Below, in pieces: positions 3,541-27,610 of a stretch of 27,610 bases of DNA. Origin of the DNA: a virus (Duplodnaviria > Heunggongvirae > Uroviricota > Caudoviricetes). How positions within the stretch are numbered: position 1 is the stretch's first letter; each line of letters begins with the position of its first letter. The DNA is taken from the IMG/VR virus record IMGVR_UViG_2529292919_000027; one strand, 5' to 3'. A model generated the notes under the pieces. That model was not told where the DNA came from. It saw only the letters and a list, made by a program, of their open reading frames with translations, and did not search any database. Both the position numbers and the translations under genes were made by a program.

Positions 3541-3951
3541 TCAGTATGTAAAATAGACAGTTGCCACGCCGTTATAGTGATCAAACGATACGGCATTTAC
3601 TTCGTAGCTGGCAGGGAGCTTCGATCCGAGAACGTATCCGGGCCACGTTTTCCATGGAATTTCTCTGCGCTCACTATCGCCATATACCGTACATCCCAGA
3701 GAGCCTACAGCTTCATTAGAACGCGTGCCGCACGTTATGAATCCCAGATTTTGCTTACTGCTCTTAATGGTGATTGGGTGAACGCTGGCTGATGCATTAG
3801 CAGCACGCTGTGCCTGTTGGTTTGCGATATTCGCAGAGTTCGCAGCAGCTACAGCAGCCGTAGTCGCGGCGGTAGAGGCTACAATAGCTGCTGAAGCATG
3901 CACTTGTTGGATATTCACCAACAATGCCGCGACAAAAATCATCTTCTTCAC
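3541..3951 (-). CDS. exported protein with N-terminal signal peptide
   Basis: MKKMIFVAALLVNIQQVHA signal-like N-terminus followed by Ala/Thr/Asn-rich linker; unusual inside an early operon. Confidence 0.5.
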   Translation of the reverse strand: MKKMIFVAALLVNIQQVHASAAIVASTAATTAAVAAANSANIANQQAQRAANASASVHPITIKSSKQNLGFITCGTRSNEAVGSLGCTVYGDSERREIPWKTWPGYVLGSKLPASYEVNAVSFDHYNGVATVYFTY

Positions 3952-4298
3952 TTGTCAGCTCCTTTGCGAATCTGTTCCGCCCATTCTTCAAGGGATTTCT
4001 CCGCATATTCACCGGACAGGCCATCAATCGGGTACGGTTCATTAGCCAACTCTTCTTTCGCTGACAGAATCATGCGTGTAACGTCGAAAACTTCACGCAA
4101 AGACTTATTGATAAATCCGTGATTGAAAGCAGCAGCAAGACGGCTTGCGGTATAGTTAATACCCTCGTTGCGAGCCTCAGCACGTACTTCATCGAATTTA
4201 CGCACCAGATACTCAGCATTTGTTTCATTCACTTTCAGATCTCGCGGTACACATTTCCCGCGAAGAAACCCTTCCATTTCGAAAACATTCATGCGCAT
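3948..4298 (-). CDS. hypothetical phage protein (possibly YfdS-like)
   Basis: 116-aa ORF, coupled to neighbours by overlapping start/stop. Confidence 0.45.
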   Translation of the reverse strand: MRMNVFEMEGFLRGKCVPRDLKVNETNAEYLVRKFDEVRAEARNEGINYTASRLAAAFNHGFINKSLREVFDVTRMILSAKEELANEPYPIDGLSGEYAEKSLEEWAEQIRKGADK

Positions 4299-8221: not shown

Positions 8222-9378
8222 ATAGTTTAACGGCAAATAACCGTTTGTCGCAACAGCTGGTGGTCAGCGTCGCTGAACACCTGTTGTTACGGCATGAATG
8301 CAGATTACCAAATCACCTGGCTGTAAGTAACCACAGAGAACTTTACCTGACTGTGGGGGGCGAGTTGTGCAGGAACTTAACCGCTGGTTTCGTGACGGAA
8401 GAGGGCTTTATGTCCATGTTATTCGTTGGGAGCCAGAAACACAGCGCGTTATCTATCTTCGCAAAGACTACCCGCATGAGTGCTTTAGTCCTTTGTGGAA
8501 ATTCAGGCGTGATTTTGTTGAGTGTGAAGGACCACCAGCATATTGATTCTGCAATTCCGGGACGTTACACTGCTCAGGCACCTTATAAAGCGGGTGCCGG
8601 GATTGGCGTCCTGAAATTGTCAACGGCGATGTATGACGCGCCAGCGTCTTTTTTATCGTCCGCATTTGCTCACATCCAGATTATGGTGGGCTGGGCGGGG
8701 GCACCGAAAGGTGCGCCGGTCTCCGTTGACGCCGGTTACGCCAACCCCGTCCAGTTCACCACCAGTGAAATTGGCGTTTCCGGTGGTGGAAGTTTTTCAC
8801 TGTCAACGGAGGCTGCCATCATGGCTACGATCCCAGCCCTCACTCAACCTGAAATCACCATTGACAACGGCCAGGCCGTTACCACTTCTTTGGCTGTTGC
8901 CAACTTCTTCTCCAAGCGTCACGACGATGTGCTGAAAAAGATCCGCACTCTGGATTGTTCCCCAGAGTTTTGTGCCCGCAATTTTGCGGAGACATCGATT
9001 TCGGTAAATCAACCGAACGGTGGTACACGCAAGCTCCCTTGCTATCAAATCACACGAGACGGTTTTGCGTTTCTTGCTATGGGTTTCACGGGTAAACGTG
9101 CTGCCCGGTTCAAAGAGGCATACATAAATGCCTTTAACCAGATGGAGAAACAGCTTTCAAAGCCCGCTGTACCGAGCGACGTTGCACATAACGCCAGCGT
9201 TCTCTGTTCCTACATTTCATCAATTCATCAGGTCTGGCTGCAGCAGCTTTATCCTATGTTGGCAAAAGCCGAATCTCCGCTGGCTGTTAGCTTATATGAC
9301 TATATTAATGATGCTTCGGCGCTGGCCAGTCTCATAAATTTGTCGCTGAACCCTTCAGAGGTAAGGGGGCGCAAATGA
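8218..9378 (+). CDS. Rha-family regulatory protein with about 200-aa N-terminal extension
   Basis: Rha-type motif block (NGQAVTTSLAVANFFSKRHDDVLKKIR...FKEAYINAFNQME) begins at internal ATG 8821 (GGAGG RBS); frame open from ATG 8218 which overlaps upstream stop. Confidence 0.55.
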   Translation: MNSLTANNRLSQQLVVSVAEHLLLRHECRLPNHLAVSNHRELYLTVGGELCRNLTAGFVTEEGFMSMLFVGSQKHSALSIFAKTTRMSALVLCGNSGVILLSVKDHQHIDSAIPGRYTAQAPYKAGAGIGVLKLSTAMYDAPASFLSSAFAHIQIMVGWAGAPKGAPVSVDAGYANPVQFTTSEIGVSGGGSFSLSTEAAIMATIPALTQPEITIDNGQAVTTSLAVANFFSKRHDDVLKKIRTLDCSPEFCARNFAETSISVNQPNGGTRKLPCYQITRDGFAFLAMGFTGKRAARFKEAYINAFNQMEKQLSKPAVPSDVAHNASVLCSYISSIHQVWLQQLYPMLAKAESPLAVSLYDYINDASALASLINLSLNPSEVRGRK

Positions 9379-13162: not shown

Positions 13163-14158
13163 GTGACCGTGAGAGCACTACTGACCCCTGAAATTGCCCC
13201 GCGTATGGGGATCGTATTGTTCAGGCCAGGTTCAGAGCTGATGCCCCTGTTTATGCAGGGGCGTGTCCTGCTGGAGCCAGAGCCGGAACGTTATTCATCT
13301 TTCGCCAGTGGTGCCGTTCCGGCGGCATCACAACCGCTGGCGGATGATCCTGCCGTTCGGACCGTGTTCCGCAATGAGGCAGTGATCCGTCGTGCTGGTG
13401 GCGTGGAATGTCTTGAAAGCTGGTTACTTCGTGAAAAAGGTTGCCAGTGGCCTCATTCCGACTGGCACAGCGAGAACATGACCACAATGCGACACACGCC
13501 GGGCGCAATCCGTCTGTGCTGGCACTGCGATAACCAGCTGCGCGATCAGTTCACGGAACGGCTGGAATCAATGGCAACGGATAACTGTACCCGCTGGGTG
13601 TTGTCTGTTGTGCGTCGGGATCTCGGTTTTGATGACAGTCACGTTGTGACAATGCCGGAACTGTGCTGGTGGCTGATTCGTAATGACCTGGCGGATGCCT
13701 TACCGGAAAGTGCAGCCCGTAAGGCACTGAGATTACCGAAGCCTGTTGTGCCGTCTGTCACCCGGGAAAGTGACCTTGTGCCTTCGGTTCCTGCCACCAG
13801 CATCATCCAGGATAAAGCGAAAAAGGTGCTGGCGCTGAAAGTGGATCCGGAGTCGCCGGAGTCTTTTATGTTACGCCCAAAACGTCGCCGCTGGGTTAAT
13901 GAAAAGTACACGCGCTGGGTTAAGACACAGCCGTGTGCATGTTGTGGAAAGCCCGCTGATGATCCCCACCACCTGATAGGCCACGGTCAGTGTGGAATGG
14001 GTACAAAAGCGCATGACCTTTTTGTGTTGCCTTTGTGCAGAAAGCATCACGACGAGCTGCATGCGGATACCGTGGCATTTGAAGAGAAGTATGGCTCTCA
14101 GCTGGAGCTGATATTTCGTTTTATCGATCGTGCGCTGGCAATTGGCGTACTGGCGTAA
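13163..14158 (+). CDS. DUF968 domain protein (YdfU-like)
   Basis: C-terminal CACCGKPADDPHHL...PLCRKHHDELH motif; GTG start. Confidence 0.55.
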   Translation: MTVRALLTPEIAPRMGIVLFRPGSELMPLFMQGRVLLEPEPERYSSFASGAVPAASQPLADDPAVRTVFRNEAVIRRAGGVECLESWLLREKGCQWPHSDWHSENMTTMRHTPGAIRLCWHCDNQLRDQFTERLESMATDNCTRWVLSVVRRDLGFDDSHVVTMPELCWWLIRNDLADALPESAARKALRLPKPVVPSVTRESDLVPSVPATSIIQDKAKKVLALKVDPESPESFMLRPKRRRWVNEKYTRWVKTQPCACCGKPADDPHHLIGHGQCGMGTKAHDLFVLPLCRKHHDELHADTVAFEEKYGSQLELIFRFIDRALAIGVLA

Positions 14159-14171
14159 GTGGAGAACGAGC

Positions 14172-14924
14172 ATGAACCTTGAAGCCTTACCGAAATATTA
14201 CTCCCCGAAATCTCCAAAACTGAGCGATGACGCACCGGCGACAGGCTCTGGTGGTTTAACAATTACGGATGTGATGGCTGCGCAGGGGATGGTGCAGTCA
14301 AAAGCACCGCTTGGGTTTGCTTTATTCCTGGCAAAAGTTGGTGTTCAGGATCCTCAGTTTGCGATTGAAGGTCTGCTCAATTACGCGATGGCACTGGATA
14401 ACCCGACATTGAATAAATTGAGTGAAGAAACCCGGCTACAGATCATTCCTTACCTTGTGAATTTTGCCTTTGCTGATTATTCCAGGTCTGCGGCAAGTAA
14501 GGCTCGCTGTGAGCATTGTGCTGGTACTGGATTTCATAATGTATTGCGCGAGGTGGTGAAACACTCCAGAAGCGGGGAATCTGTTATTAAGGAAGAGTGG
14601 GTGAAGGAACTATGTCAGCATTGTCATGGTAAGGGAGAAGTCAGCACAGCATGCAGAGGGTGCAAGGGTAAAGGTATTGTCCTGGATGAAAAAAGAACCC
14701 GGCTTCATGGCACGCCTGTTTATAAGGTTTGTGGGCGTTGCAATGGAAACCGGTTTAGCCGTTTACCAACCACACTGGCGCGGCTTCATGTCCAGAAGCT
14801 GGTACCAGACCTGACGGATTATCAGTGGTACAAAGGATATGCAGATGTCATTGATAAACTGGTTACAAAGTGCTGGCAGGAAGAAGCATATGCAGAGATA
14901 CAATTGAGAAAGGTGACAAGATAA
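14172..14924 (+). CDS. antitermination protein Q-like (long Q family)
   Basis: Multiple CxxC zinc motifs (CEHCAGTG, CQHCHGKG, CRGCKGKG, CGRCNGNR); last nin-region gene before terminators and late genes. Confidence 0.6.
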   Translation: MNLEALPKYYSPKSPKLSDDAPATGSGGLTITDVMAAQGMVQSKAPLGFALFLAKVGVQDPQFAIEGLLNYAMALDNPTLNKLSEETRLQIIPYLVNFAFADYSRSAASKARCEHCAGTGFHNVLREVVKHSRSGESVIKEEWVKELCQHCHGKGEVSTACRGCKGKGIVLDEKRTRLHGTPVYKVCGRCNGNRFSRLPTTLARLHVQKLVPDLTDYQWYKGYADVIDKLVTKCWQEEAYAEIQLRKVTR

Positions 14925-15426: not shown

Positions 15427-15502
15427 GGCCCTTTAGCTCAGTGGTGAGAGCGAGCGACTCATAATCGCCAGGTCGCTGGTTCAAATCCAGCAAGGGCCAC
15501 CA
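15427..15502 (+). tRNA. tRNA-Ile2 (anticodon CAU; Met-type anticodon, ileX/ileZ-like)
   Basis: Cloverleaf by eye: acceptor ggccctt/aagggcc, D-arm gctcagtggtgagagc, anticodon loop ctCATaa, T-arm ggttcaaatcc, CCA end; near-identical to E. coli ileX as recalled. Confidence 0.8.
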
Positions 15503-15509
15503 TCACATA

Positions 15510-15586
15510 CCGCCATTAGCTCATCGGGATAGAGCGTCAGCCTTCGAAGCTGGCTGTGCGGGGTTCAAGTCCCCGATGGCGGTCCA
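15510..15586 (+). tRNA. tRNA-Arg (anticodon UCG)
   Basis: Acceptor ccgccat/atggcgg, anticodon loop ctTCGaa, T-arm ggttcaagtcc, CCA end. Confidence 0.75.
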
Positions 15587-15599
15587 TTATCAGCATCAT

Positions 15600-15676
15600 G
15601 CGTTGTTAGCTCAGTCGGACAGAGCAATTGCCTTCTAAGCAATCGGTCACTGGTTCGAATCCAGTACAACGCGCCA
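15600..15676 (+). tRNA. tRNA-Arg (anticodon UCU)
   Basis: Acceptor gcgttgt/acaacgc, anticodon loop ctTCTaa, T-arm ggttcgaatcc, CCA end. Confidence 0.75.
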
Positions 15677-16874: not shown

Positions 16875-17047
16875 CGGTAAAACTGCGCCTGGCTGTGGCT
16901 GCACTCCTGCTGTTTCTGGTGGTGATGGTGGATTTCACCAGCAGAATCATGTCGGTGCTGGCGGATGGGGTGCTGGTCTGCGGCATTGTGGTATTGCTGT
17001 GGCCGGTGATAAAAAGAAACAGCCTGCATAATGCTTGATTTTTTTAT
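16871..17047 (+). CDS. small membrane protein (58 aa, two predicted TM segments) coupled to TerB-like gene
   Basis: GTG overlapping TerB stop (GTGA); two hydrophobic stretches; short, so uncertain. Confidence 0.4.
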
Positions 17048-17352
17048 TTGCTGTTTATTAAAAATACTACTGCATGGTGAATCCCCCTGTGCGGAGGGGC
17101 GATCAGCAACCAGGTATATGGGATAATCGCGGATTCAGGTGCTGATACTGAATTCACCGGGAGGCACCCGGCACCATGCTTTGCCGCAAAAGTGTTGTTT
17201 CTGTTTTTCTCAAACTATCATCGTTATCCCTTTATTTCCGGCTGCGCATGGCGTGGCCTTTTTTTTACGACCAGCCACTGGCAGATGGCCATCCTGTAAT
17301 TTGATTCCGGTTCCGGCTTTTTAACTCTGTTCCTGTACACGGGAGAAATTCG

Positions 17353-19206
17353 ATGTCGATTAAACATTATGATGTTGTCAGGGCGGCGTCGCCGTCAGAC
17401 CTTGCGGAAAAGCTGACACACAAACTGAAAGAGGGCTGGCAGCCGTTTGGTAGTCCGGTGGCCATAACCCCTTATACCCTGATGCAGGCGATTACAGCAG
17501 AAGGTGATGTGGTGGTCAGTGGTGCAACTGAGCCGGATTGGTACTACGTCATCGTACTGGCCGGGCAGTCCAATGCCATGGCTTACGGTGAAGGGCTTCC
17601 GCTGCCGGATTCATACGATGCTCCGGATCCGCGCATTAAACAGCTGGCGCGCCGCAGTACAGTTACGCCGGGTGGGGCTGCATGCAGATATAACGATATT
17701 ATTCCGGCCGACCACTGCCTGCATGATGTGCAGGATATGAGTACGCTGAATCATCCGAAGGCAGACCTGAGCAAAGGGCAGTACGGCTGTGTCGGCCAGG
17801 GCTTACATATTGCCAAAAAACTGCTCCCGTATATCCCGAATAACGCGGGGATCCTGCTGGTACCATGCTGTCGTGGTGGTTCGGCATTCACCCAGGGCGC
17901 GGAGGGGACATTCAGTGCGGACACGGGGGCCAGCCAGGATTCGGCACGCTGGGGTGTGGGTAAACCGTTATATCAGGACCTGATTGCGCGCACTAAAGCT
18001 GCATTACAGAAGAACCCGAAAAATGTGTTGCTGGCGGTGTGCTGGATGCAGGGAGAGTTTGACATGAGCGCCGCCACCCACGCACAGCAACCTGCGCTGT
18101 TTACAGCCATGCTGACACAGTTTCGTGCTGACCTCTCCGTGTTTAACGCGCAGTGCCATGGTGGCAGTGCTGCAGATGTGCCGTGGATTTGTGGTGACAC
18201 GACGTATTACTGGAAAAATACATACGCTACCCAGTACGACACCGTGTACGGCGGGTATAAAAACAGGGAGAGTGAGGGCGTTTATTTTGTGCCCTTCATG
18301 ACAGACGGTAACGGCGTCAATACCGCCACTAACGCACCGGCAGAAGATCCGGATATTCCGGCATCAGGATATTACGGTGCGGCATCGAGAACGAATGGAA
18401 ACCAGGTATCATCAAACCGCCCGACACATTTCAGTTCATGGGCGCGCAGGAGCATTATTCCGGATCGTATGGCAACCGCTATTCTGAACGCAGCCGGGCG
18501 CACCTCAGCTTTCATCAGTGGTAAGGCACCGGAAATCAAACCCTCGCCCGGCGGCAACACGCCATCGGGGCCGTCTGAAGATGCATCCGTACGCACAATC
18601 TCCCTGTTGCCGACAGCCGGAGAGGCTGCTGCGCAGGGCTGGACCATTAAGGACGGCGGAATTCAGTTGTCGGGTGGTGTATTTAAGATCGCCAAGCAGA
18701 GCAATAAAACCTGGTCCCTGATGCATCCGGTGGATGACGCAGTCTCCCTGCTGACACGGGGTGGCAGACTGAGCTGTAAGTTTCGACTGTCAGGCGCACT
18801 GACCAACAACCAGTTCGGCCTGGGAATTTATCTGTATACCGATGTAGCGTTACCTGACGTCGTGGCGATGACCGGGACTGGTAACCCGTTCCTGATGTCG
18901 TTCTTCACCCAGACCACAGACGGCAAACTGAATCTGATGCATCACAAGAAAGCAGGAAACACAAAGTTGGGCGAGTTCGGGAATTACAGTAATGACTGGC
19001 AGACGCTGGAACTGGTGTTCACCGCCGGCAGTGCCACGGTTACTCCGAAACTGAATGGAGTGGCTGGCCCGGCATTCCAGGTCATAAAAGACAGTCTGAC
19101 ACTGGGGCTGAATGCGCTGACGCTGACGGATATTACCAAAAATGCAGCGTATGGCGTTGAGATAGAAAGTCTGGTGCTGGAGATAAATGCACCGGCATCA
19201 TCATAA
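17353..19206 (+). CDS. nanS: prophage sialate O-acetylesterase NanS-p-like (DUF1737 + SGNH/SASA esterase)
   Basis: N-terminal DUF1737-like segment and VIVLAGQSNAMAYG esterase motif; position matches nanS-p of Stx phages. Confidence 0.8.
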   Translation: MSIKHYDVVRAASPSDLAEKLTHKLKEGWQPFGSPVAITPYTLMQAITAEGDVVVSGATEPDWYYVIVLAGQSNAMAYGEGLPLPDSYDAPDPRIKQLARRSTVTPGGAACRYNDIIPADHCLHDVQDMSTLNHPKADLSKGQYGCVGQGLHIAKKLLPYIPNNAGILLVPCCRGGSAFTQGAEGTFSADTGASQDSARWGVGKPLYQDLIARTKAALQKNPKNVLLAVCWMQGEFDMSAATHAQQPALFTAMLTQFRADLSVFNAQCHGGSAADVPWICGDTTYYWKNTYATQYDTVYGGYKNRESEGVYFVPFMTDGNGVNTATNAPAEDPDIPASGYYGAASRTNGNQVSSNRPTHFSSWARRSIIPDRMATAILNAAGRTSAFISGKAPEIKPSPGGNTPSGPSEDASVRTISLLPTAGEAAAQGWTIKDGGIQLSGGVFKIAKQSNKTWSLMHPVDDAVSLLTRGGRLSCKFRLSGALTNNQFGLGIYLYTDVALPDVVAMTGTGNPFLMSFFTQTTDGKLNLMHHKKAGNTKLGEFGNYSNDWQTLELVFTAGSATVTPKLNGVAGPAFQVIKDSLTLGLNALTLTDITKNAAYGVEIESLVLEINAPASS

Positions 19207-19356: not shown

Positions 19357-19572
19357 ATGTACCAGATGGAAAAAATCACAACAGGTGTGTCATACACCAC
19401 GTCAGCGGTGGGAACGGGCTACTGGTTCCTGCAGTTGCTGGACAGGGTTTCCCCGTCTCAGTGGGCGGCAATAGGCGTGCTGGGGAGTCTGCTGTTTGGG
19501 CTGCTGACATATCTGACTAACCTGTATTTCAAAATCAGAGAGGACCGTCGTAAGGCGGCGCGGGGGGAGTAA
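19357..19572 (+). CDS. class II holin, S21-like pinholin with dual start
   Basis: 71 aa with MYQMEK dual-start, sequence very close to phage 21 S (…[45 protein letters not shown]). Confidence 0.85.
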
Positions 19573-19615: not shown

Positions 19616-19668
19616 GTAACCGGCTCATTTAAACCGTCTGGTCTGTTTCCTCCGGCTCTACAAAAATA

Positions 19669-20010
19669 ATGTCCATCATTTTTAATGGACACTATCGTAT
19701 GAAACACCGGACCTGGATCACTGAAGCTTTACGTCTTCACTTTGAAGAACATTTACCCCGGGTTGTGGCCGGGCGTCGCCTGGGTGTACCAAAATCAACA
19801 GTTTGTAGTATGTTCGTGCGCTTTCGGAGAGCTGGCCTTTCGTGGCCTTTGCCCGCAGGCATGTCGGAGCAGGAACTTGATGCCTGCCTTTACGGACAAT
19901 TTTCCACGGTACCAGTCGTACGTCCTGAAAGCACCGTTATATCCGAAGCCCCCGTGGTAAAAAACGTCCCCGGCGGCCCAACTTCCCTTATGAGTTTAAA
20001 ATCGCCTTAG
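19669..20010 (+). CDS. IS-encoded HTH ORF upstream of tnpA (possibly the frameshifted N-terminal part of tnpA)
   Basis: 113-aa ORF with HTH-like RRLGVPKSTV; ends where the tnpA frame opens. Confidence 0.4.
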   Translation: MSIIFNGHYRMKHRTWITEALRLHFEEHLPRVVAGRRLGVPKSTVCSMFVRFRRAGLSWPLPAGMSEQELDACLYGQFSTVPVVRPESTVISEAPVVKNVPGGPTSLMSLKSP

Positions 20011-20345
20011 TGGAGCAGTCACTGCAGCCCGGAGCCTGTGTGGCGCAGATCGCCCGGGAAAACGGAATCAACGATAACCTGCTCTTCAACTGGCGCCATC
20101 AATACCGGAAAGGTGGCCTGCTGCCTTCCGGAAAAAATATGCCGGCACTGCTTCCCGTGACGTTAACGCCGGAGCCGGATAATAAAATCCCGGCCCCCGC
20201 ACAGGAACCAGAGCAGATAAATACACCGTCCGACAGTCTGTGTTGTGAGCTGGTTCTGCCGGCCGGAACTCTCAGGCTTAAAGGTAAACTGACGCCGGCG
20301 TTATTACAGACACTTATCCGCGAAATAAAAGGGAGCAGCCACTGA
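20010..20345 (+). CDS. tnpA: IS66-family accessory protein TnpA (orfA), start uncertain
   Basis: PRRPNFPYEFK...VAQIARENGINDNLLFNWRHQYRKG HTH motif; frame open from 19929 without ATG; ORF track start is GTG at 20010. Confidence 0.6.
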   Translation: MEQSLQPGACVAQIARENGINDNLLFNWRHQYRKGGLLPSGKNMPALLPVTLTPEPDNKIPAPAQEPEQINTPSDSLCCELVLPAGTLRLKGKLTPALLQTLIREIKGSSH

Positions 20346-20692
20346 TGATATCTCTCCCTGCAGGTTCGCGTATCTGGCTGGTTGCAGGTATCACCGATAT
20401 GCGAAATGGCTTTAACGGCCTGGCATCAAAAGTTCAGAACGTCCTGAAGGATGACCCGTTCTCCGGACACCTGTTCATCTTCCGCGGACGCCGGGGTGAC
20501 CAGATAAAAGTGTTGTGGGCTGACAGTGACGGACTGTGCCTCTTCACCAAACGCCTGGAGCGGGGCCGCTTCGTCTGGCCAGTCACCCGTGACGGCAAGG
20601 TGCACCTTACTCCGGCTCAGTTATCCATGCTTCTTGAAGGTATCAACTGGAAGCACCCGAAACGAACGGAACGCGCTGGAATCCGCATATAA
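20345..20692 (+). CDS. tnpB: IS66-family TnpB (Orf2)
   Basis: Recalled IS66 Orf2 sequence (MISLPAGSRIWLVAGITDMR...HLFIFRGRRGD.IKVLWAD.DGLCLFTKRLE). Confidence 0.85.
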   Translation: MISLPAGSRIWLVAGITDMRNGFNGLASKVQNVLKDDPFSGHLFIFRGRRGDQIKVLWADSDGLCLFTKRLERGRFVWPVTRDGKVHLTPAQLSMLLEGINWKHPKRTERAGIRI

Positions 20693-20711
20693 CCCGTTGT
20701 AAAGTGAGGAT

Positions 20712-22283
20712 ATGGACACCTCACTTGCTCATGAGAACGCCCGCCTGCGGGCACTGTTGCAGACGCAACAGGACACCATCCGCCAGATGGCTGAATACAA
20801 CCGCCTGCTCTCACAGCGGGTGGCGGCTTATGCTTCCGAAATCAACCGGCTGAAGGCGCTGGTTGCGAAACTGCAACGTATGCAGTTCGGTAAAAGCTCA
20901 GAAAAACTTCGTGCAAAAACCGAACGGCAGATACAGGAAGCACAGGAGCGAATCAGCGCACTTCAGGAAGAAATGGCGGAAACGCTGGGTGAGCAATATG
21001 ACCCGGTACTGCCATCCGCCCTGCGCCAGTCTTCAGCCCGTAAACCGTTACCGGCCTCACTTCCCCGTGAAACCCGGGTTATCCGGCCGGAAGAGGAATG
21101 CTGTCCTGCCTGTGGTGGTGAACTCAGTTCTCTGGGATGTGATGTGTCAGAGCAACTGGAGCTTATCAGCAGCGCCTTTAAGGTTATCGAAACACAACGT
21201 CCGAAACAGGCCTGTTGCCGGTGCGACCATATCGTGCAGGCACCAGTACCTTCAAAACCCATTGCACGCAGTTATGCCGGAGCGGGGCTTCTGGCCCATG
21301 TTGTCACCGGGAAATATGCAGACCATCTGCCGTTATACCGCCAGTCAGAAATATACCGTCGTCAGGGAGTGGAGCTGAGCCGTGCCACACTGGGGCGCTG
21401 GACAGGTGCTGTTGCTGAACTGCTGGAGCCGCTGTATGACGTCCTGCGCCAGTATGTGCTGATGCCCGGTAAAGTCCATGCTGATGATATCCCCGTCCCG
21501 GTCCAGGAGCCGGGCAGCGGTAAAACCCGGACAGCCCGGCTGTGGGTCTACGTCCGTGATGACCGTAACGCCGGTTCACAGATGCCCCCGGCGGTCTGGT
21601 TCGCGTACAGTCCGGACCGGAAAGGTATCCATCCACAAAATCACCTGGCCGGTTACAGCGGTGTGCTTCAGGCCGATGCTTACGGTGGTTACCGGGCGTT
21701 ATACGAATCCGGCAGAATAACGGAAGCCGCGTGTATGGCTCATGCCCGGAGAAAAATCCACGATGTGCATGCAAGAGCGCCCACCTACATCACCACGGAA
21801 GCCCTGCAGCGTATCGGTGAACTGTATGCCATCGAGGCAGAGGTCCGGGGCTGTTCAGCAGAACAGCGTCTGGCGGCAAGAAAAGCCAGAGCCGCGCCAC
21901 TGATGCAGTCACTGTATGACTGGATACAGCAACAGATGAAAACACTGTCGCGTCACTCAGATACGGCAAAAGCGTTCGCATACCTGCTGAAACAGTGGGA
22001 TGCACTGAACGTGTACTGCAGTAATGGCTGGGTGGAAATCGACAACAACATCGCAGAGAACGCCTTACGGGGAGTGGCCGTAGGCCGGAAAAACTGGATG
22101 TTCGCGGGTTCCGACAGCGGTGGTGAACATGCGGCGGTGTTGTACTCGCTGATCGGCACATGCCGTCTGAACAATGTGGAGCCAGAAAAGTGGCTGCGTT
22201 ACGTCATTGAACATATCCAGGACTGGCCGGCAAACCGGGTACGCGATCTGTTGCCCTGGAAAGTTGATCTGAGCTCTCAGTAA
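20712..22283 (+). CDS. tnpC: IS66-family transposase TnpC
   Basis: N-terminal leucine zipper, CPACGGEL zinc motif, DDE region; 523 aa. Confidence 0.85.
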
Positions 22284-22313
22284 ATATCAATACGGTTCTG
22301 ACGAGTCGCTTAC

Positions 22314-22677: not shown

Positions 22678-23211
22678 ATGAACGCAAAAATCAGATACGG
22701 CCTGTCGGCTGCCGTTCTGGCGCTGATTGGTGCAGGGGCGTCTGCGCCTGAAATCCTCGACCAGTTTCTTGACGAAAAAGAAGGTAACCACACCACGGCA
22801 TACCGTGATGGTGCGGGTATCTGGACCATCTGCCGCGGTGCCATCCTGGTGGATGGTAAACCTGTCGTCCCGGGCATGAAGTTGTCGAAGGAAAAATGCG
22901 ACCAGGTTAACGCCATTGAACGTGATAAGGCGCTGGCATGGGTGGAGAAAAACATCAGAGTGCCACTGACCGAACCCCAGAAAGCGGGGATTGCGTCATT
23001 CTGTCCGTACAACATTGGTCCTGGTAAGTGTTTCCCGTCGACGTTTTACAGACGAATTAATGCAGGTGATCGCAGGGGAGCGTGTGAGGCGATTCGCTGG
23101 TGGATTAAGGACGGTGGCAGAGACTGCCGTATTCGTTCAAACAACTGTTACGGTCAGGTATCCCGTCGTGACCAGGAGAGCGCGCTGGCGTGCTGGGGTA
23201 TCGACAGATAA
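22678..23211 (+). CDS. SAR endolysin (T4-lysozyme-like, GH24)
   Basis: N-terminal signal-anchor-release segment (GLSAAVLALIGAGASAP), catalytic region resembling R21/P1 Lyz. Confidence 0.8.
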   Translation: MNAKIRYGLSAAVLALIGAGASAPEILDQFLDEKEGNHTTAYRDGAGIWTICRGAILVDGKPVVPGMKLSKEKCDQVNAIERDKALAWVEKNIRVPLTEPQKAGIASFCPYNIGPGKCFPSTFYRRINAGDRRGACEAIRWWIKDGGRDCRIRSNNCYGQVSRRDQESALACWGIDR

Positions 23212-23299
23212 GCAGAATATTTTGCTGAAAAATAAGGCATGGCCACGCGGGCGGATAACACGAAATCCTGCGAACTGGCGAAACGTAAGTGAATAAAAG

Positions 23300-23340
23300 T
23301 AAAAACCCCGTTTGTTGGCACCAAGCGGGGTTTTGTGTTT
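23300..23340 (+). terminator. intrinsic terminator after endolysin
   Basis: ccccgtttg ... caagcgggg stem with T-rich tail; A-run upstream. Confidence 0.45.
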
Positions 23341-23367
23341 CTGACCTTGAGTAAGGCAAGGGAGAAC

Positions 23368-23550
23368 ATGGCGAAGTATAAACGAATTCTGTTGAGGTTG
23401 ACTATGAAAAATGGCCTTGAACTGAAAGCGCCTGTAACTGATGACATCAGCAGAGCACTGGCTTTTGCCATTAAGTGGGTGGCGGTCGGTGTTGCTGTGT
23501 CCCCGATGCTGTATGGGCTGGCAAAACTGGTCATTGCGTTGAAATCGTGA
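23368..23550 (+). CDS. small protein with C-terminal TM segment (60 aa)
   Basis: ATG after AGGGAG; hydrophobic C-terminus; lies between endolysin and Rz. Confidence 0.4.
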
Positions 23551-23564
23551 AGGGAGGATTAAGC

Positions 23565-23696
23565 ATGTCAGACAAACTCATAACGCTGGCGAAGATCCTC
23601 TGTGTAATTGTCGGCATTTCATTTTCACTAATGCTGGTTGCTCTTTTTCTTTCCATGGCCTGGATGATGTTGTCTTCGTCGGGGTTGCTGGGGTGA
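23565..23696 (+). CDS. small hydrophobic membrane peptide (43 aa)
   Basis: ATG after AGGGAGG; single TM; stop overlaps Rz start region. Confidence 0.4.
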
Positions 23697-23707
23697 ACAT
23701 AAACCGA

Positions 23708-24166
23708 ATGCTTTCCGCGTTTATCGTTATTCTGCTGGTGGCCTGTGGTGCGCTGTGGATGGCAACAGACCATTACCGTGATAACGCGATTACCTACAAA
23801 GCGCAGCGCGATAACAAAGCCAGTGAACTGAAGCTGGCGAACGCAACCATTACTGATATGCAGGTGCGCCAGCGCGATGTTGCTGCGCTCGATGCAAAAT
23901 ACTCGAGGGAATTATCCGATGCGAGAGCTGAAAATGAAACTCTGCGCGCTGATGTTGCCGCTGGTCGTAAGCGCCTGCGGATCAACGCCACCTGTCCAGG
24001 CTCCGTGCGTGAAGCCCCCACCACCTCCGGCGTGGATAATGCAACCGGCCCCCAACTGGCAGACACCGTTACACGGGATTATTTCACCCTCAGAGAGCGG
24101 CTGATGACGATGCACAAGCAACTGGAAGGGGCACAGGACTATATCCGCACTCAGTGCCTGAAATAA
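23708..24166 (+). CDS. Rz: Rz i-spanin
   Basis: N-terminal [17 protein letters not shown]...DVAAGR.RL motif matching Rz; ORF track 23693..24166. Confidence 0.8.
23919..24104 (+). CDS. Rz1: Rz1 o-spanin lipoprotein (embedded in Rz, +1 frame)
   Basis: Lipobox LVVSAC and [14 protein letters not shown] proline-rich motif as in lambda Rz1. Confidence 0.75.
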
Positions 24167-25911: not shown

Positions 25912-27610
25912 TTCTGCAGGAGCGATAGCAACCGGCCTCCTTGCGCTAAAAATTCCTGTCCCTCTGACGACAGTTCAGTGGGCAGATCGACATTATTACC
26001 TTCCGAAAGAGTCATCTTACACCCCGGGGCGGTGGGAAACACTGCCGTTTCAGGTTGCCATCATGAACAGCATGGGGAATGACCGGATCCGCACTGTTAA
26101 TCTGATTAAATCTGCCCGTGTTGGTTATACAAAGATGTTGCTGGGAGTGGAGGCTTATTTTATTGAGCATAAATCACGCAACAGCCTTCTTTTCCAGCCC
26201 ACGGATTCTGCTGCTGAAGATTTTATGAAATCTCATGTGGAACCCACGATCAGGGATGTGCCGGTTTTACTCGATCTTGCACCGTGGTTTGGGCGTAAAC
26301 ATCGTGATAATACCCTCACGCTGAAACGCTTTTCATCGGGCGTCGGTTTCTGGTGCCTGGGCGGCGCTGCCGCCAAAAACTACCGTGAAAAATCCGTGGA
26401 CGTGGTCTGCTATGACGAACTTTCCTCGTTCGAGCCGGATGTCGAAAAAGAGGGCTCGCCAACCCTGCTGGGGGATAAGCGTATTGAGGGGTCGGTGTGG
26501 CCAAAATCCATTCGCGGCTCGACGCCTAAAATCAAAGGCACCTGCCAGATCGAAAAAGCGGCCAACGAGTCGGCGCATTTCATGCGTTTTTATGTGCCCT
26601 GCCCGCACTGTGGGGAGGCGCAGTATCTGAAATTTGGCGATGAGTCCACGCCTTTTGGGCTTAAATGGGAGAAGGACAGTCCCGAAAGCGTTTTCTACCT
26701 CTGTGAACATCATGGCTGCGTGATCCATCAGTCTGAGCTTGACCAGAACAACGGGCGGTGGATCTGTGAAAACACGGGCATGTGGACCCGTGACGGTCTG
26801 ACGTTTTTCAGCGCCCGGGGTGATGAAATTCCGCCGCCGCGCTCCATCACGTTCCATATCTGGACGGCGTACAGTCCGTTCACCACCTGGGTACAGATTG
26901 TCTATGACTGGCTGGATGCACTGAAAGATCCCAACGGCCTGAAAACCTTTGTGAACACCACGCTGGGCGAGACCTGGGAAGAGGCCGTGGGCGAAAAACT
27001 CGATCACCAGGTACTGATGGATAAGGTGGTGCGTTACACGGCGGCGGTGCCTGCCCGGGTGGTTTATCTGACGGCGGGCATTGACTCGCAGCGAAACCGT
27101 TTTGAGATGTATGTCTGGGGATGGGCTCCGGGAGAGGAAGCTTTTCTGGTGGATAAAATCATCATTATGGGGCGTCCTGATGAGGAAGAGACGCTGTTAC
27201 GTGTGGATGCGGCGATCAACAAAAAATACCGCCATGCGGATGGCACCGAAATGACTATTTCCCGTGTCTGCTGGGACACCGGGGGGATCGATGGTGAAAT
27301 TGTTTATCAGAGATCAAAAAAACACGGTGTTTTCCGGGTGCTGCCGGTAAAAGGCGCATCTGTCTATGGCAAGCCGGTGATCACCATGCCAAAAACCCGC
27401 AATCAGCGGGGCGTGTATCTGTGTGAAGTGGGAACGGACACCGCAAAAGAAATTCTCTATGCCCGTATGAAAGCCGATCCCTCGCCTGCGGATGAAGCCA
27501 CGTCGTATGCCATCCGTTTTCCTGATGATCCGGAGATTTTTTCGCAGACAGAGGCGCAGCAACTGGTGGCGGAAGAGCTGGTGGAGAAGTGGGAAAAAGG
27601 AAAGATGCGT
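25883..27610 (+). CDS. terminase large subunit (gpA-like), 3' end beyond window
   Basis: Continuous frame to window end, closely parallel to lambda gpA (…WETLPFQ..IMN.MG.D.IR.V...KSARVGY.KMLLGV.AYFIEHK…); absent from ORF track, presumably because it has no stop in window. Confidence 0.9.

What the first reader, a model, noticed from the sequence alone, without database searches (positions are those of the whole stretch)
23368..23696. Two small membrane proteins between the SAR endolysin and Rz
The cassette already has an S21-type pinholin upstream. Two further short ORFs (60 aa with a C-terminal TM, and a 43-aa single-TM peptide), each with a strong RBS, sit after an intrinsic terminator and directly before Rz. 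They could be an antiholin, a second holin or lysis-timing regulators, or superinfection-exclusion peptides. I do not recall canonical phage-21 or lambda cassettes carrying genes here.
Basis: partly seen in the sequence, partly recalled or inferred. Interest (0 to 1): 0.5.

Follow-up and report, generated by a model that had tools for sequence, protein, structure and literature searches.

The report
Two small membrane genes before Rz
Two short, conserved but uncharacterised membrane-protein genes sit between the cell-wall enzyme and the outer-membrane spanin genes of this E. coli prophage; they occur in about a third of E. coli genomes, and they look like optional add-ons rather than core lysis genes.

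Summary
ORF1 (23368-23550, 60 aa) and ORF2 (23565-23696, 43 aa) follow a terminator hairpin (23302-23334) and abut Rz. Both are conserved and under purifying selection (dN/dS 0.24 and 0.45). Databases call them only "hypothetical protein".

They are two separate modules.
- **ORF2** is restricted to Escherichia/Shigella lambdoid phages, including 933W, where it is unannotated. It is glued to the 5' end of Rz in 87 of 90 copies, and its last codons lie where the Rz ribosome-binding site is expected. A Sakai homologue (XECs191) has a weak ribosome-profiling signal.
- **ORF1** belongs to a wider enterobacterial family. In all ten diverged members examined, across different positions in late operons (lysis cassettes, tail-fibre ends, myovirus tail clusters), it is preceded by the same bidirectional hairpin. 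All ten keep an internal ATG with its own Shine-Dalgarno motif, which suggests 60-aa and 48-aa products.

Neither gene is tied to the pinholin/SAR endolysin pair, and neither matches any holin, releasin, spanin or defence family.

Best reading: non-essential, late-expressed inner-membrane accessory proteins. ORF2 would be an Rz-coupled leader peptide and ORF1 a portable cassette. Function remains untested. This is a new member of a known kind, of moderate interest.

The parts
19357..19572 (+). S21-type pinholin (context)
   Evidence: The translation [13 protein letters not shown]...[13 protein letters not shown] appears within the ORF listed. The homologous gene is annotated as a class II holin.
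19616..22313 (+). IS66-family insertion inside ydfR (DUF1327), separating the pinholin from the endolysin (context)
   Evidence: Alignment to the uninterrupted O157 locus gives an 8-bp overlap, i.e. the target duplication GGATAAAT. The three IS ORFs are listed. The 3' part of ydfR matches DUF1327 from profile position 24.
22678..23211 (+). SAR endolysin R
   Evidence: Matches PF00959 at 3e-24 and phrog_7. The N-terminal weakly hydrophobic segment YGLSAAVLALIGAGASA was scored.
23212..23300 (+). R 3' untranslated region, conserved together with R
   Evidence: It is shared with 933W, BP-4795 and Stx1a phages as far as GTAAGTGAATAAAGT. Homology ends at the foot of the hairpin.
23302..23334 (.). 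GC-rich hairpin flanked by an A-run and a T-run: a bidirectional intrinsic terminator
   Evidence: Found by the terminator scan. A homologous hairpin precedes all 10 diverged ORF1-family genes, with region folding energies of -18 to -27 kcal/mol and differing stem sequences.
23358..23364 (+). Shine-Dalgarno motif AAGGGAG for ORF1
   Evidence: Read directly from the sequence.
23368..23550 (+). ORF1: 60-aa basic protein with a C-terminal, marginally hydrophobic long helix
   Evidence: Listed. Matches phrog_1115 at 2.6e-42. dN/dS is 0.24. The AlphaFold model has helices at residues 2-16 and 22-59, with pLDDT about 90 over the second. The family reaches Salmonella, Klebsiella and Serratia.
23394..23406 (+). 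Internal GAGG motif plus ATG (Met13): a possible second start giving a 48-aa product
   Evidence: The ATG and a GAGG upstream of it (6 nt in nine members, 9 nt in the two GER2-type members) are kept in all 10 diverged members, even where the amino acids change from LRLT to VEAN. Many database entries call the 48-aa form.
23375..23404 (-). Sigma-70 promoter-like match (TAGTCA, 18-nt spacer, TATACT) that would start an antisense RNA of about 75 nt ending at the hairpin. Speculative.
   Evidence: Found, where it is not above the shuffled expectation within the window. An equivalent match with its -10 on the K-Y-K codons is present in 9 of 10 diverged family members, against a background of 1 per 1750 nt. 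No RNA evidence was found.
23551..23558 (+). Shine-Dalgarno motif AGGGAGGA for ORF2
   Evidence: Read directly from the sequence. It is conserved in 126 or more loci.
23565..23696 (+). ORF2: 43-aa single-pass inner-membrane peptide, predicted N-in/C-out, attached to Rz
   Evidence: Listed. Matches phrog_4906 at 2e-23. The transmembrane segment at residues 11-29 has a summed dG of -3.8. In 87 of 90 copies Rz starts within 30 nt. The family has only 28 representatives among 1.84 billion. The Sakai homologue XECs191 has RIBOseq signal.
23693..24166 (+). Rz i-spanin (GTG 23693 overlapping the ORF2 stop, or ATG 23708)
   Evidence: Matches PF03245 at 7e-47 and phrog_13. The junction sequences are shown.
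23919..24104 (+). Rz1 o-spanin embedded in the +1 frame of Rz
   Evidence: The +1-frame ORF contains [20 protein letters not shown], which includes a lipobox. Homologues are annotated as lipoprotein precursor in Sakai.

Best explanation
Both ORFs are real, late-operon genes for small inner-membrane proteins. They are optional passengers in the endolysin-spanin gap, which is a mosaic hot-spot of lambdoid phages. They are two independent modules.

**ORF2** (43 aa, one strong transmembrane helix, predicted N-in/C-out with only 7 periplasmic residues) is a fixed 5' appendage of the Rz gene.
- Shown by sequence: its stop overlaps or lies 7-11 nt before the Rz start, and its last codons (CTGGGGTGA) lie where the Rz ribosome-binding site is expected.
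- Inferred: it is therefore translated together with Rz and hands ribosomes on to it.
- Inferred: the peptide then sits in the inner membrane next to the i-spanin anchor, where it can modulate the last, outer-membrane step of lysis but is not required for it.

**ORF1** (60 aa: a basic N-terminal helix plus a long, weakly hydrophobic C-terminal helix) is a portable cassette made of a bidirectional terminator hairpin followed by the gene.
- Shown: the same cassette sits at several intergenic positions of late operons in enterobacterial prophages.
- Shown: there is no room for a promoter between hairpin and start codon.
- Inferred: it is made only by read-through of its own upstream hairpin. In this prophage that means Q-antiterminated late transcription.
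- Inferred: it probably yields two products (60 and 48 aa) from two conserved starts, and acts as a dose-limited membrane-active accessory protein.

Together they would fine-tune envelope disruption rather than execute it.
For: **Real genes.**
- Start signals and geometry are as described.
- Both show purifying selection and intact frames across variants.
- They match PHROG families 1115 and 4906.
- PGAP and phage records annotate them as hypothetical proteins.
- XECs191, the Sakai ORF2 homologue, has RNA RPKM 30, RIBOseq RPKM 12.6 and RCV 0.43 in LB (PMC5597208).

**Optional.**
- They are absent from K-12 Qin, where rrrQ and rzpQ overlap.
- In 933W and BP-4795 the slot holds ant plus ORF2.
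- In Salmonella and GER2 it holds ORF1 alone.

**ORF2 is tied to Rz.**
- In 87 of 90 copies Rz starts within 30 nt, across three junction types.
- It also occurs behind a GH108 endolysin with other holins.
- The family is tiny and reported only from Escherichia and Shigella phages.

**ORF1 is a portable cassette.**
- Homologues at 34-83% identity occur in Salmonella, Klebsiella, Serratia and other Enterobacteriaceae.
- Contexts include between R and Rz, after tail-fibre assembly genes, and inside myovirus tube and baseplate clusters.
- A homologous hairpin lies 25-70 nt upstream in all 10 diverged members.
- In ant-type phages, homology with the window breaks exactly at the foot of the hairpin.

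**Two starts.** The internal ATG and GAGG are conserved in 10 of 10 members despite amino-acid changes.

**Precedent.** Non-essential membrane lysis modulators beside SAR endolysins are known: Mu gp25 and N4 gp62.
Against: - No functional test exists for either protein, and nothing in the literature searched addresses them.
- The ORF1 family is often found far from any lysis gene, which fits a lysis-independent role at least as well.
- ORF2 selection is weak (dN/dS 0.45), and its C-terminal third varies freely. This is what a mere coupling leader would show.
- The antisense shadow frames have similar statistics.
- The RIBOseq signal is low, comes from uninduced cells and may be affected by repeated prophage copies.
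- The hairpin after R may simply be the usual post-R terminator. ant-type phages also have one at that position, with a different stem.
- In this particular prophage an IS66 element splits the cassette, so expression here may be impaired.
Confidence: 0.45

Rival explanations
1. They are lysis-independent accessory (moron-like) genes, for example superinfection-exclusion or host-membrane-modifying peptides. On this view they merely use permissive gaps in late operons, of which the R-Rz gap is one.
For: - The ORF1 cassette lies in many non-lysis positions: the tail-fibre end next to DUF1353, and inside tube and baseplate clusters.
- The R-Rz gap also hosts ant and other unrelated small genes.
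- The taxonomic range is narrow and the distribution patchy.
- Low-level RNA and RIBOseq signal is seen in uninduced Sakai.
Against: - There is no promoter between the hairpin and the start codon, and no downstream terminator. The classical moron layout is therefore not met, and expression in a lysogen should be blocked by the upstream terminator.
- Neither protein matches PADLOC defence models.
- ORF2 is never seen away from Rz.
Confidence: 0.22
2. They are an antiholin, a second holin or a timing regulator acting specifically on the S21-type pinholin / SAR endolysin pair.
For: - They are membrane proteins inside a pinholin-SAR cassette.
- ORF1 has a dual-start layout reminiscent of S107/S105 and S21 71/68.
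- The ORF1 hydrophobic helix is weakly hydrophobic, like a SAR domain.
- In 133 of about 175 loci examined they co-occur with an S21-type holin and R.
Against: - The same genes sit behind GH108 and M15 endolysins with different holins, and behind a Phage_holin_2_3 holin in Salmonella.
- ORF1 relatives lie outside lysis cassettes altogether.
- There are no holin Pfam or PHROG lysis hits.
- They are absent from phage 21-type cassettes such as Qin.
- They are placed downstream of R rather than with S.
Confidence: 0.13
3. ORF1 is a toxic small membrane protein controlled in the manner of a type I toxin-antitoxin. A short cis-antisense RNA would start at the K-Y-K codons on the minus strand, cover the ORF1 ribosome-binding site, and end at the bidirectional hairpin. 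That would explain why the hairpin always travels with the gene.
For: - A minus-strand promoter-like match sits at 23404..23375.
- An equivalent match is present in 9 of 10 diverged members although the -35 hexamers and spacer differ, against a background of 1 per 1750 nt.
- The hairpin has a better T-tract on the minus strand.
- GER2 and Salmonella versions use an 8-codon leader ORF whose stop overlaps the GTG start, resembling mok/hok coupling.
- The gene product is a small hydrophobic protein.
Against: - The -10 lies on conserved Lys-Tyr-Lys codons, so coding constraint can explain its conservation.
- Synonymous-site invariance there is not significant: only 3 codons are invariant, and Arg and Ile codons next to them vary.
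- No promoter for the putative toxin mRNA was found.
- None of the 63 Hfq-bound sRNA peaks in Sakai lies at the Sp14 (2691871-2692210) or Sp4 homologues.
- Rfam gives no hit apart from a chance-level one.
Confidence: 0.12
4. One or both ORFs are non-functional. ORF2 would be only a spacer or leader whose translation matters and whose peptide does not. ORF1 would be a decaying remnant, or an ORF kept open by chance or by an antisense constraint.
For: - ORF2 has a dN/dS of 0.45 with variation spread evenly over codon positions, and a free C-terminal third.
- Antisense shadow frames are open with similar dN/dS.
- Frameshifted and fused variants exist in databases.
- A rearranged order (ORF2 followed by a truncated ORF1) occurs in vB_EcoS-569R3.
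Against: - ORF1 has a dN/dS of 0.24, with in-frame indels and synonymous changes across genera.
- ORF2 keeps its 43-codon core without internal indels (extra codons only at the N-terminus) and keeps the hydrophobic core at 65-100% identity in 276 phage records.
- Both have strong, conserved Shine-Dalgarno motifs.
- A homologue has ribosome-profiling signal.
Confidence: 0.08

Closest known systems
Phage Mu gp25 'releasin' (DUF2730)
   Same: It is a small membrane-tethered, mostly cytoplasmic protein encoded a few genes downstream of a SAR endolysin, next to the spanin genes. It is not a holin.
   Different: gp25 is 99 aa with an N-terminal transmembrane domain (N-out/C-in) and an acidic cytoplasmic domain. 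ORF1 has a basic N-terminus and a C-terminal hydrophobic helix. Neither ORF matches DUF2730. The ORF1 family is not restricted to SAR-endolysin phages.
Non-essential lysis regulators: N4 gp62, P1 LydB, P2 LysA, and the lambda S107 / phage 21 S71 antiholins. P1 LydB and P2 LysA are cited from my own knowledge; the others.
   Same: They are membrane proteins in or beside lysis cassettes that shift timing but are dispensable. Dual-start motifs give two products. In P2, lysA sits between the endolysin and the spanin equivalents.
   Different: There is no sequence or family relationship. ORF1 and ORF2 have one hydrophobic segment each, rather than 2-4. They lie after the endolysin. No timing data exist. 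ORF1 also occurs outside lysis cassettes.
Lambdoid 'morons' in the sense of Juhala et al. 2000, for example bor, lom and HK97 gp15 (examples from my own knowledge; the concept is cited)
   Same: They are extra genes present in some phages and absent in close relatives, inserted between conserved late genes, and often encode small membrane or envelope proteins.
   Different: Classical morons carry their own promoter upstream and a terminator downstream, and are expressed in the lysogen. Here the terminator is upstream, no promoter fits, and the next gene follows within 11-14 nt.
Type I toxin-antitoxin loci such as hok/mok/sok (own knowledge)
   Same: They encode a small hydrophobic inner-membrane protein. 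Some ORF1 relatives have a short leader ORF overlapping the start. A possible cis-antisense RNA with a Rho-independent terminator can be drawn.
   Different: No toxin promoter and no antisense RNA have been demonstrated, no toxicity is known, and there is no family match.
Rz/Rz1 two-component spanin
   Same: ORF2 has the same predicted topology as the Rz anchor (N-in, single transmembrane helix) and is co-translated with Rz.
   Different: ORF2 has only 7 periplasmic residues, no coiled coil and no lipobox. Similarity to Rz transmembrane domains is not significant.

Membership tests
Holin / antiholin (including the S21-type pinholin) | Match to a holin protein family | tested here: not met
   There are no Pfam, NCBIfam or PHROG lysis-category hits for ORF1 or ORF2. 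The true pinholin is at 19357-19572.
Holin / antiholin (including the S21-type pinholin) | Genetic pairing with one holin/endolysin type | tested here: not met
   The genes are found with S21-type plus SAR R, with putative holins plus GH108, with holins plus an M15 peptidase, and with Phage_holin_2_3 plus lysozyme in Salmonella.
Holin / antiholin (including the S21-type pinholin) | Lethal, timed membrane permeabilisation, or a delay of it | not testable with these tools
   This needs induction and lysis curves.
Holin / antiholin (including the S21-type pinholin) | Dual-start motif giving two products that differ in N-terminal charge | tested here: inconclusive
   ORF1 has two conserved starts (Met1 and Met13), and the extension carries +4 charge. 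However, the hydrophobic segment is C-terminal, so the lambda S logic does not transfer directly. Start usage has not been measured.
Releasin (Mu gp25, DUF2730) | DUF2730 domain | tested here: not met
   No Pfam hit.
Releasin (Mu gp25, DUF2730) | N-terminal transmembrane domain (N-out/C-in) with an acidic cytoplasmic domain | tested here: not met
   ORF1 has a basic N-terminus and a C-terminal helix. ORF2 has almost no soluble part.
Releasin (Mu gp25, DUF2730) | Encoded within a few genes downstream of a SAR endolysin | tested here: met
   ORF1 starts 157 nt after R. This holds for only part of the family.
Spanin (i-, o- or u-spanin) | i-spanin: an N-terminal transmembrane domain plus a long periplasmic coiled coil. 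o- or u-spanin: a lipobox. | tested here: not met
   ORF2 has 7 residues after its transmembrane helix, ORF1 has none, and neither has a lipobox. Rz and Rz1 are present separately.
Moron (Juhala et al. 2000) | Present or absent between genes that are adjacent in related phages | tested here: met
   Qin has rrrQ overlapping rzpQ. 933W has ant there instead of ORF1. The ORF1 cassette lies between the tube and tail-chaperone genes in L178.
Moron (Juhala et al. 2000) | Own sigma-70 promoter upstream and own terminator downstream | tested here: not met
   The terminator is upstream. Only 33 nt separate the hairpin from the ATG, and the next gene starts 14 nt after the ORF1 stop.
Type I toxin-antitoxin | Small hydrophobic membrane toxin under about 60 aa | tested here: inconclusive
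   Size and hydrophobicity fit. Toxicity is untested.
Type I toxin-antitoxin | Cis- or trans-encoded antisense sRNA with its own promoter and terminator | tested here: inconclusive
   A promoter-like site and a bidirectional terminator are conserved in 9 of 10 members. No RNA was recorded at the Sakai homologues in the Hfq-CRAC table, and there is no Rfam family match.
Known anti-phage defence / exclusion proteins | Match to a PADLOC model | tested here: not met
   No hits at E up to 1.

The most novel reading that the evidence does not exclude
The ORF1 cassette would be a previously unrecognised portable control unit: a bidirectional hairpin, a dual-start small membrane protein, and a cis-antisense RNA. 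It would move between late operons of unrelated enterobacterial prophages. Separately or in addition, ORF2 would be the first dedicated partner or regulator of an i-spanin, setting the amount or activity of Rz in about a third of E. coli genomes, including Stx2 phage 933W.
Probability: 0.15. Interest if true: 0.7.

Novelty: new member of a known kind. Interest (0 to 1): 0.38.

Why it matters
The Rz-attached 43-aa peptide is present in most Shiga-toxin phages, where toxin release depends on lysis. It is still unannotated in the reference 933W record, and no function has been assigned to it. If it tunes spanin production or activity, it would add a regulatory layer to the last step of Gram-negative phage lysis, a step currently thought to be controlled only by the state of the cell wall.

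The ORF1 cassette shows that a small membrane-protein gene and its upstream hairpin travel together between quite different prophage operons. That is a concrete, testable case of how accessory genes are kept quiet inside essential operons.

If neither gene has a phenotype, the result is still useful for annotation. These would then be conserved, translated small ORFs that should not be labelled as holins.

Tried and rejected
- **ORF2 as a duplicated Rz membrane anchor.** Local alignments against many Rz N-termini, with shuffle controls, gave no consistent significance. Rejected as unsupported.
- **Family searches.** Pfam, NCBIfam and PADLOC gave nothing beyond a sub-threshold DUF3930 hit. PHROGs gave only 'unknown function' families.
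- **Rfam.** The R-Rz gap gave only a chance-level rimP-leader hit on the minus strand (E 0.073). The Pas/AgvB/AsxR prophage sRNAs map near nanS-p and the holin, not here.
- **Looking for the proposed antisense RNA in published Hfq-CRAC peaks.** I located the Sakai homologues: Sp14 ECs_2740/ECs_5740, Sp4 ECs_1094, Sp11 ECs_5730 and Sp10 XECs191. None of the 63 peaks falls there. EcOnc33, which looked promising at about 71 nt, lies in the 3' end of nanS-p.
- **GTDB species-representative genomes.** The ORF1 patterns returned no confirmed locus.
- **RNAalifold on a MAFFT alignment of the hairpins.** This was uninformative because of indels. Folding each sequence separately was used instead.
- **Codon-position statistics as proof of strand.** Rejected, because the antisense shadow frames behave similarly.
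- **Synonymous-site invariance at codons 3-5 as proof of a DNA-level signal.** Too few codons to be significant.
- **Literature.** Searches by accession and by locus tag found nothing.
Full report
**What is in the window**

The window is the late region of an E. coli lambdoid prophage. In order it holds:
- a nanS-p-like esterase (17353-19206);
- an S21-type pinholin (19357-19572);
- the gene ydfR (DUF1327), interrupted by an IS66-family element;
- a SAR endolysin R (22678-23211, PF00959);
- Rz (PF03245) with Rz1 embedded.

The IS66-family element is 2698 bp (19616-22313) and has an 8-bp target duplication.

- a 13-bp GC-rich hairpin with a T-tract (23302-23334);
- ORF1 (23368-23550, 60 aa), preceded by AAGGGAG;
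- ORF2 (23565-23696, 43 aa), preceded by AGGGAGGA;
- Rz, starting either at a GTG that overlaps the ORF2 stop (23693) or at ATG 23708.

The hairpin also has an A-run on its 5' side, so it is bidirectional, and its minus-strand T-tract is the better one.

**Are the ORFs real?**

The 521-bp block 23200-23720 is present at 80% coverage or more in 990 of 5426 complete E. coli genomes. ORF1-like DNA is in 1598 genomes and ORF2-like DNA in 1750, with up to 11 copies per genome. RefSeq and phage records call both "hypothetical protein".

They fall in PHROG families of unknown function: ORF1 in 1115, 4493 and 3246, and ORF2 in 4906. They have no Pfam, NCBIfam or PADLOC match.

About 160 viral contigs plus diverged phage and genome loci gave 21 and 19 unique nucleotide variants. 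Of these, 20/21 (ORF1) and 19/19 (ORF2) are intact. dN/dS in the annotated frame is 0.24 for ORF1 and 0.45 for ORF2, against 0.10 for R and 0.37 for Rz. The two other plus-strand frames give about 0.75 to 1.9.

One caveat applies. The antisense frame that shares wobble positions is also open and scores 0.37 (ORF1) and 0.48 (ORF2). The plus-strand assignment therefore rests on the conserved Shine-Dalgarno motifs and start codons, the operon geometry, the hydrophobic character and in-frame indels between genera.

There is independent experimental support for ORF2. Hücker et al. 2017 (PMC5597208) list its Sakai Sp10 homologue as novel gene XECs191. In LB it had RNA RPKM 30.0, RIBOseq RPKM 12.6, ribosome coverage value 0.43 and coverage 0.55, and it was predicted to be an inner-membrane protein. 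The signal is weak and comes from uninduced cultures.

**Protein features**

ORF2 has a strongly hydrophobic segment at residues 11-29 (summed Hessa dG -3.8). Two lysines precede it and only SSSGLLG follows it, so the prediction is N-in/C-out.

ORF1 has a basic N-terminus: residues 1-12 carry +4 charge. AlphaFold predicts a helix at residues 2-16 and one long helix at residues 22-59, with pLDDT about 90 over the second. The hydrophobic part of that long helix is only marginal (dG +3.7, interrupted by two lysines). That is comparable with the SAR domain of R at +2.7.

**ORF2 belongs to Rz**

An exhaustive HMM search of 1.84 billion representatives found only 28 clusters. All named sources are E. 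coli. tblastn hits in 276 phage records are in Escherichia/Shigella lambdoid phages, mostly Stx phages, at 65-100% identity and always full length.

In BP-4795, phi191, 933W and Sakai Sp11 the order is R, ant, ORF2, Rz. In the 933W reference record the ORF is simply not annotated: there is a gap at 27424-27576.

In 87 of 90 copies examined, Rz starts within 30 nt of the ORF2 stop. In the other three, a truncated ORF1 lies in between.

Three junction types exist. In all of them the ORF2 end, (C/G)TGGGGTGA, lies where the Rz ribosome-binding region is expected. In the window type, no other Shine-Dalgarno motif precedes ATG 23708.

ORF2 also occurs behind a GH108 endolysin with different holins. 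It therefore tracks Rz, not the pinholin or SAR enzyme. A suspected origin from a duplicated Rz anchor was not supported.

**ORF1 is a portable cassette**

Homologues extend to E. marmotae, Salmonella, Klebsiella, Serratia and another member of the Enterobacteriaceae. Their contexts differ widely:

| Context | Example |
|---|---|
| R, ORF1, Rz, without ORF2 | Salmonella L163, phage GER2, Sakai Sp4 |
| After an M15 or GH108 endolysin | L007, L004 |
| After tail-fibre assembly genes; in L169, L179-L181 followed by a DUF1353 gene, once as tandem paralogues | L167, L169, L179-L181 |
| Inside myovirus tail clusters (upstream of the sheath-initiator and baseplate genes; between tube and tail chaperone) | L176, L177; L178 |

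In all ten diverged members, a homologous hairpin of the form AAAACCCCG...CGGGGTTTT lies 25-70 nt upstream, with stems that differ in sequence. That gap is too short for a promoter. In ant-type phages, homology with the window stops exactly at the 5' foot of the hairpin. The mobile unit therefore appears to be the hairpin plus the gene.

All ten members keep an internal ATG (Met13, 23404) with a GAGG upstream of it (6 nt in nine members, 9 nt in the two GER2-type members). This holds even where the residues change from LRLT to VEAN. That suggests two products, of 60 and 48 aa.

Some relatives start instead with a GTG that overlaps the stop of an 8-codon leader ORF.

**A speculative antisense RNA**

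A minus-strand promoter-like site (TAGTCA, 18-nt spacer, TATACT; 23404..23375) would produce an RNA of about 75 nt. It would cover the ORF1 ribosome-binding site and end at the hairpin. A site meeting the same criteria, with its -10 on the Lys-Tyr-Lys codons, exists in 9 of 10 diverged members although the -35 hexamers and spacer differ. The background rate is 1 per 1750 nt.

The weaknesses are substantial:
- Coding constraint can explain the -10.
- The synonymous-site argument is not significant.
- None of the 63 Hfq-bound sRNA peaks of Tree et al. 2014 lies at the Sakai homologues that I located: Sp14 ECs_2740/ECs_5740, Sp4 ECs_1094, Sp11 ECs_5730 and Sp10 XECs191.

I keep this idea as a minority hypothesis.

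**Interpretation**

The genes are dispensable for lysis in principle. Qin lacks them, as do lambda and phage 21 (from my own knowledge).

No promoter fits between the hairpin and ORF1, and each gene abuts the next. In this prophage they can therefore only be made by read-through of the hairpin on the Q-antiterminated late transcript. The Q gene is at 14130-14924.

The most economical reading is that both are non-essential, late inner-membrane accessory proteins:
- ORF2 is an Rz-coupled leader peptide that may also act beside the i-spanin anchor.
- ORF1 is a dose-limited, portable membrane protein.

Precedents for dispensable membrane modulators next to SAR endolysins exist: the Mu gp25 releasin and the N4 gp62 lysis regulator. 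Neither is related in sequence or architecture to ORF1 or ORF2.

The rivals remain open:
- lysis-independent moron or exclusion genes;
- a pinholin-specific antiholin;
- a type I toxin-like unit;
- non-functional leader or remnant ORFs.

**Verdict**

These are widespread, already-annotated but uncharacterised genes, so I class them as new members of a known kind: optional small membrane proteins of phage late operons. Interest is moderate (0.38). It rests mainly on two findings: the tight ORF2-Rz link in Stx phages, and the ORF1 gene travelling with its hairpin.

Noticed in passing
window 19616-22313: A 2698-bp IS66-family element with an 8-bp target duplication (GGATAAAT) is inserted in ydfR (DUF1327). 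It splits the lysis cassette between the pinholin and the endolysin, so this prophage's lysis operon may be polar or defective.
   Followed up: partly
window 17046-17215, 8578-8766 and 15427-15673: Rfam hits above the gathering score: STnc100 just upstream of the nanS-p-like esterase, which is the neighbourhood where prophage Pas and anti-sRNAs are described; isrK plus a C4 antisense RNA (P1/P7-type immunity RNAs); and three tRNA genes.
   Followed up: no
window 23212-23300: The R 3' untranslated region is conserved together with R in 933W, BP-4795 and Stx1a phages. It contains a small hairpin (GGCGGAT...ATCC; a perfect 7 bp in the Salmonella version) just before the terminator. This resembles a 3'UTR-derived sRNA, but no Rfam family matches.
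   Followed up: partly
L175 (GER2) ~1960-2000; L163 (Salmonella) ~3970-4003: An 8-codon leader ORF (MGREVLSL or MCREVYSL) has a stop that overlaps the GTG start of the ORF1-like gene. It contains an AGGGAGG...TCCCT hairpin. The window version appears to have lost about 25 nt, fusing the leader ATG directly to codon 3.
   Followed up: partly
L006 (vB_EcoS-569R3) ~730-1077: A third small hydrophobic peptide (about 31 aa, ending ...LIVAIKG) occupies the same slot in vB_EcoS-569R3. There the order is this peptide, then ORF2, then a truncated ORF1 (38 aa). Some database proteins are ORF2-ORF1 fusions.
   Followed up: partly
L163 ~3722-3811: In the Salmonella prophage, a 29-aa very hydrophobic ORF (MICFVAAFMLACDGRSGWGWFLLVGLIVM) overlaps the stop of the endolysin gene.
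   Followed up: no
L169 3805-4168; L179-L181 3501-4053: Salmonella prophages carry ORF1-family genes, once as two tandem paralogues, at the tail-fibre end of the prophage. Each is immediately followed by a DUF1353 gene, which is a recurrent pairing of unknown meaning.
   Followed up: no
window 23154-23534 (-) and 23531-23773 (-): Long antisense 'shadow' ORFs lie opposite ORF1 and ORF2. They stay open in nearly all variants because they share wobble positions with the sense frames. They cross the terminator and gene boundaries and are most likely artefacts.
   Followed up: yes
L185 (Sakai Sp4) 1183365-1186375: In Sakai prophage Sp4 the lysis cassette (holin, R, ORF1-like ECs_1094, Rz, pchA) lies inverted relative to the neighbouring late genes. 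It is flanked by IS629 and ISEc8 (IS66-family) copies.
   Followed up: no
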